A stretch of DNA of 63,061 nt, the filler included, from Klebsormidium nitens (lineage: Eukaryota > Plantae > Klebsormidiophyceae): NCBI GenBank assembly GCA_000708835.1. It is 9 parts of 9 records of this genome, joined end to end, with 100 filler letters (N's around TTAATTAATTAA, not from the genome) between each part and the next. Parts side by side here need not be neighbours in the genome. Positions count along the whole stretch, not along the records: positions 1 to 9,105 come from DF238239.1; 8 more parts are not named here. The stretch is one strand, 5' to 3'. The position numbers and the translations under genes were made by a program. Shown here in pieces: positions 3,603-5,374 of this stretch. A model generated the notes under the pieces. The model made no database searches. It was not told the origin of the DNA and saw only the letters and a list, made by a program, of their open reading frames with translations. Position 1 is the first letter of the stretch. The number at the start of each line of letters is the position of its first letter.

Positions 3603-5374
3603 CTACCCTTCCGCGACTAGGAGCGCCGCCTCGAGCTCCACTTCAGCTTCCCCCCTCCCCTGAGCGAGCTTCTCCTCGCGCACGGGCTCCCGGTTCTCGG
3701 CCAACTCCCGGGCCCTCTCCGCTGCCACTCGCTTCTCCTGCTCCCGGGCCTCTTTCAACGCCTTCTTCCTTGCCTTCTCCTCCACTTCCGCCTCGAGCAC
3801 CCTCACCCTTTCCGCTGCAGCTGCCGTCTCGTCCTCCTCCTCCTCCTCGGGCTCCGACTCAACAAGGGTCTCCTGCTGCCCCTTGAGGAATTCCCTAACG
3901 CGCCTGTCGTATTCCGCCCTGCGCCGCGCTTCACCGCCGCTGCGTTTTGCCCTGGGTGGAACGAACCCCGTGCCCGGAATCCGCTCCCTCAGCCGAGGGT
4001 CCCACTCCGGTGCGCCGGCAAGCTCTTCTCCCGCACCAAAGTACTTCACCGAGGATTTTAGCACCTCGGTCTTGTCTCCGGGAAGATCTCCCCGGATGCG
4101 CCGTGCAAGCTTGATGTCCTTGGGTTGCAAAGTGACCCGCTTGGCGTGCACCGCTGCAAAGTTGGCGTCTTCGAGGACGTTGGAGGAGTAGTCCTCTGTA
4201 GCAGTCTGAAGCGCGGAGACGGCGTTATTGGTCCAGCTGTAGAGGTAGCGCATAGATTCATTGGCGCCCTGCTTTACCGGTGAAATGTGAAACCATGCGC
4301 GGTCAGCCAATGCCCATCATGAAAGGCGCGCACGGGTTCAAAAGCGTTGCAATCAAGCTGAAATATTGAAATCTCGCGCGGGACGGGGAAACAACACTAC
4401 AGTGGAATTGTGCAGCCCAAAGGCAAACTAGAAGTGTCCTCACGACGCCACTTTTGAGAATATTGAGAAGAGTAGGTAGGACATGAAAACAAGCAGCCCG
4501 CTCTGAAAACTACAAGTTTCAAGATGGCAAGACGAGCGGCGCGCAGACGTTCAAATATCGAGCATTAGGACGTCTAAATTGAAACCCTGCGCAGGTTCAA
4601 GCAGAACTAAATTTGAGGGTACATGCAGAGACCAGCTTTGAAAAGTAAAGGTATTGAGAACAAAAGAGCAAAACCAAAGGTGCCCATCAGCGATTTTCAA
4701 CAAGCTTGGTAGCAAAATTGCTAGATGAAGCAAGTGGGCCGCTCAAAAGAAGAATATTACTCCGTGAAAGAAAGTCGCGCATAGAATGATTGAAGTAGCC
4801 ATTTCACAAACGGCATTGCTTCAGAATGCACGAAGAAAAAGCTGCTGCATTAAAAAGGAGGGCGACACAAATCACATTGTCTTCAAACCCGAGCATTACA
4901 ATTCCAGTCCTAAGCCTGCGCTAGTACGGTCACATTGAGGCACTCACCGAATGTCGTTCCGCCCGGTGACGTTGATGGTGATCTCTCTAATCACACGGTT
5001 GAAAGGCAAGCGGCGAATGAGAAGGGCGCCGGTTCTCTGGTACTTCCTGATCTCCTTGAGGGACTGGGGAGGCGCGCCTTGTAGCGCTTCTTGGCGGGCG
5101 GCTCCTGAGTGGGGGTAGGCGGGTTTTTCACTGCCACGTCCCGGCCTCTCTTTTCACCCGCCACGGGTTGCTTTCCCTTTCCTGCAGCCGCCGCCTTCCG
5201 AGATTCCTCAAGCTTATTGCGCTTTTGCTTCAGCTTGTCTAGGTGTTTGTTCAACTTGGGAGGCTTTTTCATGGGCCCTTTGCCCCCGCTGCCCCGCGCC
5301 GGCTCCGGCGCATTAGTTTCCTGGGCCTGGTTAGAGGGCCCTGCTTCATCTGGCCTGGCAAACCTTTGCCGCAT
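3603..5374 (-). CDS. Divergent histone H3-fold protein (exons 5374-4948 and 4236-3603) with ~96-aa N tail and ~160-aa charged C-terminal extension; one frameshift near 5065
   Basis: The spliced translation ...[96 protein letters not shown] aligns to the H3 alphaN-alpha3 fold. Donor CG|GTGAGT (4948) and acceptor CTCTACAG|C (4236) keep the frame. Confidence 0.88.

What the first reader, a model, noticed from the sequence alone, without database searches (positions are those of the whole stretch)
3603..5374. Highly atypical histone H3 variant: long tail with K9-to-G change, 2-aa loop-1 insertion and ~160-aa C-terminal extension
Seen: the fold aligns to H3, but loop 1 reads [14 protein letters not shown] versus canonical EIAQDFKTDLRF (two residues longer, W for F). 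The tail is ~96 aa and contains [12 protein letters not shown], resembling ARKSTGGKAPRK with G at the K9 position. After ARRIRGD the protein continues into an E/R/A/K coiled coil. Established: a longer loop 1 and a divergent long tail characterise CENH3, but H3/CENH3 normally end within a few residues of RRIRG. Inference: a CENH3-derived or element-borne histone mimic that could evade or titrate H3K9-based silencing in this repeat-rich setting.
Basis: partly seen in the sequence, partly recalled or inferred. Interest (0 to 1): 0.72.

Follow-up and report, generated by a model that had tools for sequence, protein, structure and literature searches.

The report
Broken algal H3-like histone, conserved extension
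This is a frameshifted copy of an unusual histone H3-like gene of the green alga Klebsormidium whose 160-residue add-on is shared with relatives in other samples, and it sits beside an unknown gene in what is likely a small mobile two-gene unit, so the family is of interest although this copy is probably dead.

Summary
The anatomy is real: minus-strand gene 5374-3603 on a 9,105-base Klebsormidium nitens scaffold, with a 94-residue tail, an H3-type fold (48 of 88 residues identical to canonical H3; loop 1 two residues longer, Q68N, F84W, T107A), one 711-base intron and 160 codons after RRIRGD. The frame break near 5065 is in the reads: two contigs cross it with no gap. As written the gene stops at codon 127, before the fold. 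A second early stop trims ten residues. The paralog has three indels, and 21 of 63 listed differences between the two fall on third positions, as neutral drift predicts. The 'K9-to-G' reading is not supported. New: the extension begins with a 60-residue motif kept in 9 other proteins (38-62% identical) with no Pfam, PDB or Atlas match, and relatives of the unknown downstream gene lie on contigs of the same length in 3 further cases. The family is one clade; CENH3 or H3 origin is unresolved. No transposase or element ends were found. Verdict: dead copy of an undescribed, probably element-borne H3-like family; the closest precedent is fungal hAT-borne H3L.

The parts
5066..5374 (-). Exon 1, 5' part: ATG and 103 codons of basic, Pro/Ala-rich tail up to KKRYKARLP
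   Evidence: Sequence; 40 of 46 residues identical to paralog P0002 over 5203-5066 (87%)
5264..5299 (-).
   Evidence: Shuffle tests
5064..5065 (-). Frame break: one base short relative to the in-frame paralog P0002
   Evidence: tblastn of P0002 switches frame here; X3 record 14 (4987-5105, 0 differences, 0 gaps) and X2 record 9 (only gap at 5202) cross it
4991..4993 (-). Stop reached in the tail frame: the gene as written gives 127 residues and no histone fold
4948..5063 (-). Exon 1, 3' part: alpha-N, alpha-1 and the longer loop 1 (SLKEIR...GRNDI)
   Evidence: Pfam Histone 6.1e-8; alignment
4237..4947 (-). Inferred 711-base GT-AG intron inside the Arg83 codon
   Evidence: Donor GTGAGT, acceptor CTACAG; the paralog model P0002 reads DIR-WT across the same place; no RNA contig crosses it
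4086..4236 (-). Exon 2: alpha-2, loop 2, alpha-3 to RRIRGD; H113, R116, D123, L126, A127, R131 kept; L100S, V101S, G102N
3882..4085 (-). Conserved extension motif (GD.PGDK ... E..G...YD ... RIPGTG..P ... YD)
   Evidence: 15 invariant-type columns incl. D, K, E, G, D, R-I-P, T-G, P, E beyond RRIRG in 9 rows; 21/55 to 38/61 identical; no Pfam, PDB or Atlas hit
3606..3881 (-). E/R/K/A-rich long helix, poorly conserved, absent or different in the most distant relatives
   Evidence: AlphaFold helices 99-126 and 130-180 of exon 2, pLDDT 85-94 in parts; identities 25/75 to 36/84 in near, 3/25 to 12/56 in far relatives
3573..3605 (-). Early TAG (3603-3605) where the paralog has Gln, followed by nine more alignable codons and the family's stop
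   Evidence: RNA?-run contigs X12 (3581-3787) and X14 (3565-3812) match the window here with 0 differences
203..3223 (-). Partner gene ORF2 (KFL_012900010, P0181): unknown acidic protein, at least two exons (intron about 2641-3009), with an assembly gap near its 3' end
   Evidence: no Pfam, PHROG, PDB or Atlas match
1..75 (-). Copia-type integrase fragment downstream of the pair
   Evidence: 90-91% identical to Copia pol on two other scaffolds of the window
7316..7659 (+). Decayed Copia-like remnant upstream of the pair
   Evidence: 66% identical over 405 columns to the Copia scaffold at 54062-57482

Best explanation
This locus is a frameshifted, likely dead copy of an H3-like gene family of Klebsormidium-type algae that carries a conserved C-terminal add-on and sits head-to-tail with one unknown gene, likely as a small mobile two-gene unit. 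Shown: the break, the early stop, the broken paralog, the conserved motif, the family as one clade. Inferred mechanism for intact members: the fold pairs with host H4 and is packed into nucleosomes (the H3-H3' bundle residues and the DNA-binding arginines are kept), so that the motif and the long charged helix hang off the nucleosome as a docking arm, in the way the extra domain of macroH2A does, most likely for the unit's own partner protein; the replaced tail would leave such nucleosomes outside the normal H3 marking system. This copy would make at most a 127-residue tail peptide.
For: Frame break crossed without a gap by X3 record 14 and X2 record 9. Product as written 127 residues. Second early stop. 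Paralog-type contigs carry +2 at 5202, +4 at 4119, -1 at 3960, matching the out-of-frame middle of P0002. 21 of 63 listed differences on third codon positions (p 0.55 for an excess). Extension motif in 9 proteins besides the two K. nitens ones (P0003-P0007, P0009, P0047, P0051, P0180). Family is one clade, 100/99. Contig lengths of H3-like and ORF2 relatives agree in 4 of 11 H3-like records, the window's own included: 9105, 44432, 12953, 5367; the 5367 pair is only about 40% and 55-64% identical to the window's proteins, so the pairing is old. Copia debris on both sides. H113, R116, D123, L126, A127, R131, R63, R69, R72, R83 kept. Precedent: H3L plus an unknown ORF inside a fungal hAT element (PMC3538342, passages).
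Against: No transposase, terminal repeat or target-site duplication in the scaffold. Only two contig types at 85% or more in the source-like sample, at similar depth, which is few for a transposon. Linkage in relatives rests on equal contig length and source, not on their DNA; 3 H3-like records on contigs of 4.4-7.3 kb have no ORF2 record of equal length. Nothing tests H4 binding or nucleosome entry; L100S/T and G102N in alpha-2 are non-conservative. The third-position count uses 63 listed places out of about 76 in those stretches, 15 of them beside an indel. The DNA runs that show the break are one sample and may be the assembly's source.
Confidence: 0.55

Rival explanations
1. The pair is a lineage-specific host gene pair, a duplicated CENH3 or H3 that gained a C-terminal domain, copied once by segmental duplication and now decaying in this strain; no mobile element is involved.
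For: Low copy number; no transposase or ends; ordinary intron and GC3 of 0.69-0.82 like the neighbour; moss CenpA shares RWT and ATEDY with the window (PMC5579357 supplement passages).
Against: Both visible copies are broken, which an essential or useful host gene would not tolerate; both lie on short scaffolds, this one between Copia remnants; several distinct variants exist in Logan and ENA samples.
Confidence: 0.25
2. This copy still works: a cryptic intron ending at the CTCCCCAG acceptor-like site at 5064 removes the break and restores the fold.
For: An AG acceptor-like site lies exactly at the fold frame, and three GT donors 68-101 bases upstream would join in frame; the 160-codon extension is still open.
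Against: The donors are weak (GTGGCG, GTGGCA, GTGAAA); the skipped part is 87% identical in protein to the paralog, so it behaves as exon; a second early stop and neutral-looking divergence.
Confidence: 0.08
3. The pair is a remnant of an endogenous giant virus or other viral element with its own histone.
For: Orphan partner gene; primase-polymerase and origin-binding-helicase genes occur on other short scaffolds of the window; an IMG/VR contig carries an H3-like gene (L001).
Against: No viral contig carries the motif or ORF2 (0 of 34 candidates; 1 of 96, a phage tail locus and a chance hit); the L001 histone ends at RRIRGERS with no extension; no BFVD match at E 0.001; both genes have spliceosomal introns; the other scaffolds are not neighbours.
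Confidence: 0.08
4. The family is the real centromeric histone of Klebsormidium, with an unusual extension.
For: Longer loop 1, divergent long tail, no Q68, no F84 (criteria in PMC4359364 passages).
Against: Both copies seen are broken; the family does not group with green-plant CENH3-like proteins in the best tree; it lacks the RYRPGT.AL stretch and the short C-end that the listed green CenpA sequences have.
Confidence: 0.04

Closest known systems
H3L of the Pyrenophora tritici-repentis hAT element (PMC3538342, passages read) and hAT-borne H3 of Pseudocercospora fijiensis (PMC6710886, abstract read)
   Same: Divergent H3-like gene matching neither H3 nor CenH3 fully, next to an ORF of unknown function, several copies, some frameshifted.
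   Different: Those sit between terminal inverted repeats with a hAT transposase, in 26 to hundreds of copies, in fungi; the passages read mention no long C-terminal extension. Here: an alga, two visible copies, no transposase or ends found, a 160-residue extension with its own conserved motif.
Plant and green-algal CENH3 (CENP-A)
   Same: Longer loop 1, long divergent tail, loss of Q68 and F84, RWT and EDY at the start of alpha-2.
   Different: Extension of 160 residues, an extra residue before alpha-N, L100S/T-x-N102 in alpha-2, own long-branch clade, both copies broken; centromere location untested.
Canonical H3 / H3.3
   Same: 48 of 88 fold residues identical; four-helix-bundle residues kept.
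   Different: Tail not alignable beyond chance; loop 1 longer; C-terminal extension.
macroH2A (recalled, no call)
   Same: Design: a histone fold with a further domain appended at the C-terminus.
   Different: Other histone class; the appended part here is unrelated to any Pfam family and is not shown to fold on its own.

Membership tests
CENH3 / CENP-A | H3-type histone fold | tested here: met
   Pfam PF00125; 48 of 88 identical to stored canonical H3
CENH3 / CENP-A | Extended loop 1 and divergent N-terminal tail | tested here: met
   criteria from PMC4359364 passages
CENH3 / CENP-A | Absence of the diagnostic Gln, Phe and Thr | tested here: inconclusive
   Q68N and F84W met; T107A changed but T118 kept. 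The passage read numbers the Thr 118; T107 is recalled.
CENH3 / CENP-A | Phylogenetic grouping with CENH3 | tested here: inconclusive
   W84 side 83/81; family + green CENH3-like p-AU 0.415; family + canonical H3 p-AU 0.229 (31 of the 65 rows)
CENH3 / CENP-A | Intact gene ending shortly after alpha-3 | tested here: not met
   Frameshift and 160-codon extension
CENH3 / CENP-A | Centromere localisation | not testable with these tools
   Needs tagging or ChIP
Transduplicated H3L (hAT-borne) | H3-like gene distinct from host H3 and CenH3, beside an unknown ORF | tested here: met
Transduplicated H3L (hAT-borne) | Transposase in the same unit | tested here: not met
   No Pfam hit in 19 window ORF pieces around the pair or in the 9 ORF2 family members; the scaffold is only 9.1 kb and cut by Copia, so loss or truncation is possible
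Transduplicated H3L (hAT-borne) | Terminal inverted repeats and target-site duplication | tested here: inconclusive
   Only short imperfect repeats in 1159-9105; the ends of the shared unit are unknown because no second locus could be fetched
Transduplicated H3L (hAT-borne) | Many dispersed copies | tested here: inconclusive
   Two contig types at 85% or more in sample S1, a 97% variant in X15; no whole genome held
Viral histones | Location among viral genes or in viral contigs | tested here: not met

The most novel reading that the evidence does not exclude
Klebsormidium algae host an old mobile element that captured CENH3 and rebuilt it into a two-part protein, a nucleosome-forming fold plus a docking arm, which builds element-specific or centromere-like chromatin and recruits the element's orphan partner protein, steering insertion or shielding the element from silencing.
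Probability: 0.15. Interest if true: 0.8.

Novelty: new variant of a known kind. Interest (0 to 1): 0.45.

Why it matters
H3-class histones almost always end a few residues after alpha-3 (established knowledge; seen in most rows). A family that has kept a distinct 60-residue motif there across proteins 38-62% identical, together with one orphan neighbour, points to a selected function and gives a testable object in a sister lineage of land plants. If the unit is mobile, it extends element-borne H3 variants from fungi to streptophyte algae and adds a new design. The copy in this window is probably dead, and the public 'histone H3' models of both K. nitens copies (GAQ93086.1, GAQ90781.1) contain out-of-frame stretches, which matters to anyone counting histone variants in this genome.

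Tried and rejected
No whole genome held, so copies and the true CENH3 could not be counted. No RNA holder listed; four low-share runs guessed to be RNA were laid: X12, X13, X14 give identical unspliced pieces at depth 2-3.3 and X15 a 97% variant, none over the intron or the break; this says nothing for or against expression. JGI metagenome contigs: 0 of 174 candidates for the motif and 0 of 14 for ORF2. IMG/VR: 2 of 22 candidates for the fold (L001 an ordinary-length H3-like gene, L002 weak), 0 of 34 for the motif, 1 of 96 for ORF2, a phage tail locus rejected as chance. Search for longer or fused forms of the motif found 7 proteins, all already known. ORF2: no Pfam, PHROG, Atlas or PDB match; AlphaFold model unusable (pLDDT 36). 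Motif: low confidence in the model (pLDDT 40-60), no Atlas or PDB hit, no BFVD match. H3-tail-like 'TTGKAP' in ORF2: not above chance (50 of 500 shuffles for P0181). H3-H4 complex model: not run, the queue was full; no verdict. Literature: searches showed no paper on this family; the CenpA set of PMC5579357 has no Klebsormidium entry and none of three family motifs. Subscription papers and bioRxiv supplements were not searchable and could hold a description. PMC12708537 and PMC549713 (passages) and PMC2995078 (one abstract passage) added little. Earlier findings: none for this sequence, ORF2 or histone in this genome.

Full report
Setting. The window is nine pieces joined by 100-base spacers; the gene's piece is 1-9105. 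The database protein P0001 matches its exon 2 at 100%, lies on a 9,105-base contig and is named histone H3 of Klebsormidium nitens (GAQ93086.1). Everything beyond 9105 is therefore not a neighbour. No whole genome was held.

Anatomy. Minus strand, ATG at 5374. The tail frame runs to KKRYKARLP; the H3 frame resumes at 5063 (SLKEIR...), a GT donor follows at 4947 and an AG acceptor at 4237, and exon 2 runs to a TAG at 3603-3605. Read through with X at the break the protein has 353 residues. Pfam Histone matches both exon parts. Over H3 residues 44-132, 48 of 88 aligned residues are identical to a stored canonical H3; loop 1 is two residues longer; Q68N, F84W, T107A; H113, R116, D123, L126, A127 and R131 are kept; L100S, V101S, G102N differ. 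The intron is inferred: the splice signals are good, the paralog's public model joins at the same place and three relatives' frames begin a few residues before the same R-W, but no RNA contig crosses it.

The tail motif. [12 protein letters not shown] is at residues 26-37. The best local match of the tail to the whole H3 tail scores 32, reached by 1868 of 5000 shuffles; against the 12-mer chosen afterwards 66 of 5000 reach it. The collinear alignment places the H3 tail on residues 54-94, with G13-K14 on G65-K66 and K9 beside R59-K60. No K9 position can be assigned, so the 'K9-to-G' claim falls.

Is the copy alive? P0002, a paralog on a 44,432-base contig, is in frame across the break. In run X3 a contig of 119 bases (4987-5105) matches the window with no difference and no gap, and in X2 a contig over 4987-5404 has its only gap at 5202. 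The break is thus in the reads; these runs are one sample and may be the assembly's source. As written, spliced or not, the gene stops after 127 residues, before the fold. The TAG at 3603 stands where the paralog has Gln, ten residues before the common end, and contigs of a second study carry it too. Paralog-type contigs show +2 at 5202, +4 at 4119 and -1 at 3960, so that copy is broken as well. Of 63 listed differences between the two types, 18, 24 and 21 fall on codon positions 1, 2 and 3; the list is partial and 15 places lie beside an indel. A rescue by cryptic splicing is possible on paper: an acceptor-like site sits at 5064 and three weak donors would join in frame. Both public gene models contain out-of-frame stretches.

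The extension is a family trait. Of 34 hits for exon 2, eight align beyond the fold (P0001-P0007, P0009); the representative search added P0047 and P0051 and the cluster look-up P0180. The first 60 residues after RRIRG are 21/55 to 38/61 identical in these nine non-K. nitens proteins, nearly as a block with invariant D, K, E, G, D, RIP, TG, P; the charged helix behind is weaker and missing in the farthest. The motif has no Pfam, PDB or Atlas match and is low-confidence in the model, while the helix is confident. The helix has few hydrophobic heptad residues and looks more like a charged single helix than a coiled coil (inference). The relatives are records from Logan and ENA without names; only the two K. 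nitens proteins name an organism.

The partner. The next gene downstream (203-3223, KFL_012900010) has 9 hits, itself included, plus one cluster member. Contig lengths agree between the two families in four cases, 9105, 44432, 12953 and 5367, with matching sources; that is 4 of 11 H3-like records, and four of the other seven lie on contigs under 3.4 kb. The 5367 pair is distant from the window's (about 40% in the motif, 55-64% in ORF2), so the pairing is old. This is inferred from lengths; the contigs could not be fetched. ORF2 has no match in Pfam, PHROGs, PDB or the Atlas and no usable model. Copia remnants flank the pair. No transposase, terminal repeat or viral gene was found.

Origin. In a tree of 65 rows the family is one clade (92/83) outside the cluster of canonical H3. 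With 31 rows (34 long-branch, fragmentary or redundant rows dropped) it is 100/99 and lies on the W84 side (83/81); neither 'family + green CENH3-like' (p-AU 0.415) nor 'family + canonical H3' (p-AU 0.229) is rejected. The W84 reference rows include Volvox and Galdieria proteins that match entries labelled CenpA in the supplement of PMC5579357. CENH3 descent is a little more likely than H3 descent (my estimate 60:40) but not shown.

How it most likely works. Shown: this copy cannot make the fold as written. Inferred for intact members: pairing with H4 and entry into nucleosomes, from the kept interface residues; display of the motif and charged helix as a docking arm; the partner protein as the likely client, from the old linkage; escape from normal H3 tail marks, from the replaced tail. 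None of these steps was tested; the complex model could not be run because the queue was full.

Comparison. The nearest described case is H3L, carried with an unknown ORF inside a hAT element of Pyrenophora tritici-repentis, matching neither H3 nor CenH3 (PMC3538342, passages), and the hAT-borne H3 copies of Pseudocercospora (PMC6710886, abstract). The present unit resembles these in design but fails the transposase test and has an extension that the passages read do not mention. It meets the loop-1, tail, Gln and Phe criteria for CENH3 (PMC4359364, passages) but is not filed as CENH3. Eight literature searches showed no description of the family; the genome paper has no occurrence of 'histone' in its main text (PMC4052687, passages).

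Verdict. A real but probably dead copy of an undescribed H3-like family with a conserved C-terminal motif and a linked orphan gene. New variant of a known kind; interest 0.45.

Noticed in passing
window 1-63061: The window is nine short scaffolds joined by regular 100-base spacers, so apparent neighbourhoods across the joins are artefacts.
   Followed up: yes
window 472-593 and 1159-1280: An identical 122-base stretch on both sides of the assembly gap in ORF2: the gap is probably false, and the public model P0181 carries a duplicated 19-residue stretch from it.
   Followed up: partly
window 3443-3616: An ATG follows one base after the family's stop at 3573-3575 and opens a short frame whose start resembles the frameshifted end of relative P0180; it may be the first exon of ORF2, which would couple the two genes tightly.
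   Followed up: no
window 41462-42331 (-): Bifunctional primase-polymerase domain (PF09250, E 5e-14) on another scaffold.
   Followed up: no
window 49222-49866 (-): Origin-binding-protein-type helicase domain (PF02399, E 1.7e-8) on another scaffold, among several long unknown frames at 46081-52499.
   Followed up: no
window 54062-57482, 57583-60229, 60330-63061: Two related Copia pol regions (73-82% identical) and one Gypsy-type RT/RNase H region.
   Followed up: partly
window 15452-15691, 18458-19052, 38705-40367: Tandem or spaced repeat arrays of 70-80 and about 135 bases on other scaffolds.
   Followed up: no
window 5270-5309: A 40-base GC-rich stretch of the tail is 85% like a very high-depth sequence in DNA runs X1, X2 and a contig in X12; probably a chance match.
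   Followed up: no
L001 6918-7310: A 130-residue H3-like gene without extension on a 119-kb IMG/VR contig.
   Followed up: partly
window 6480-7100 (-): AT-richer stretch upstream of the gene with broken, coding-looking frames and no Pfam match.
   Followed up: partly
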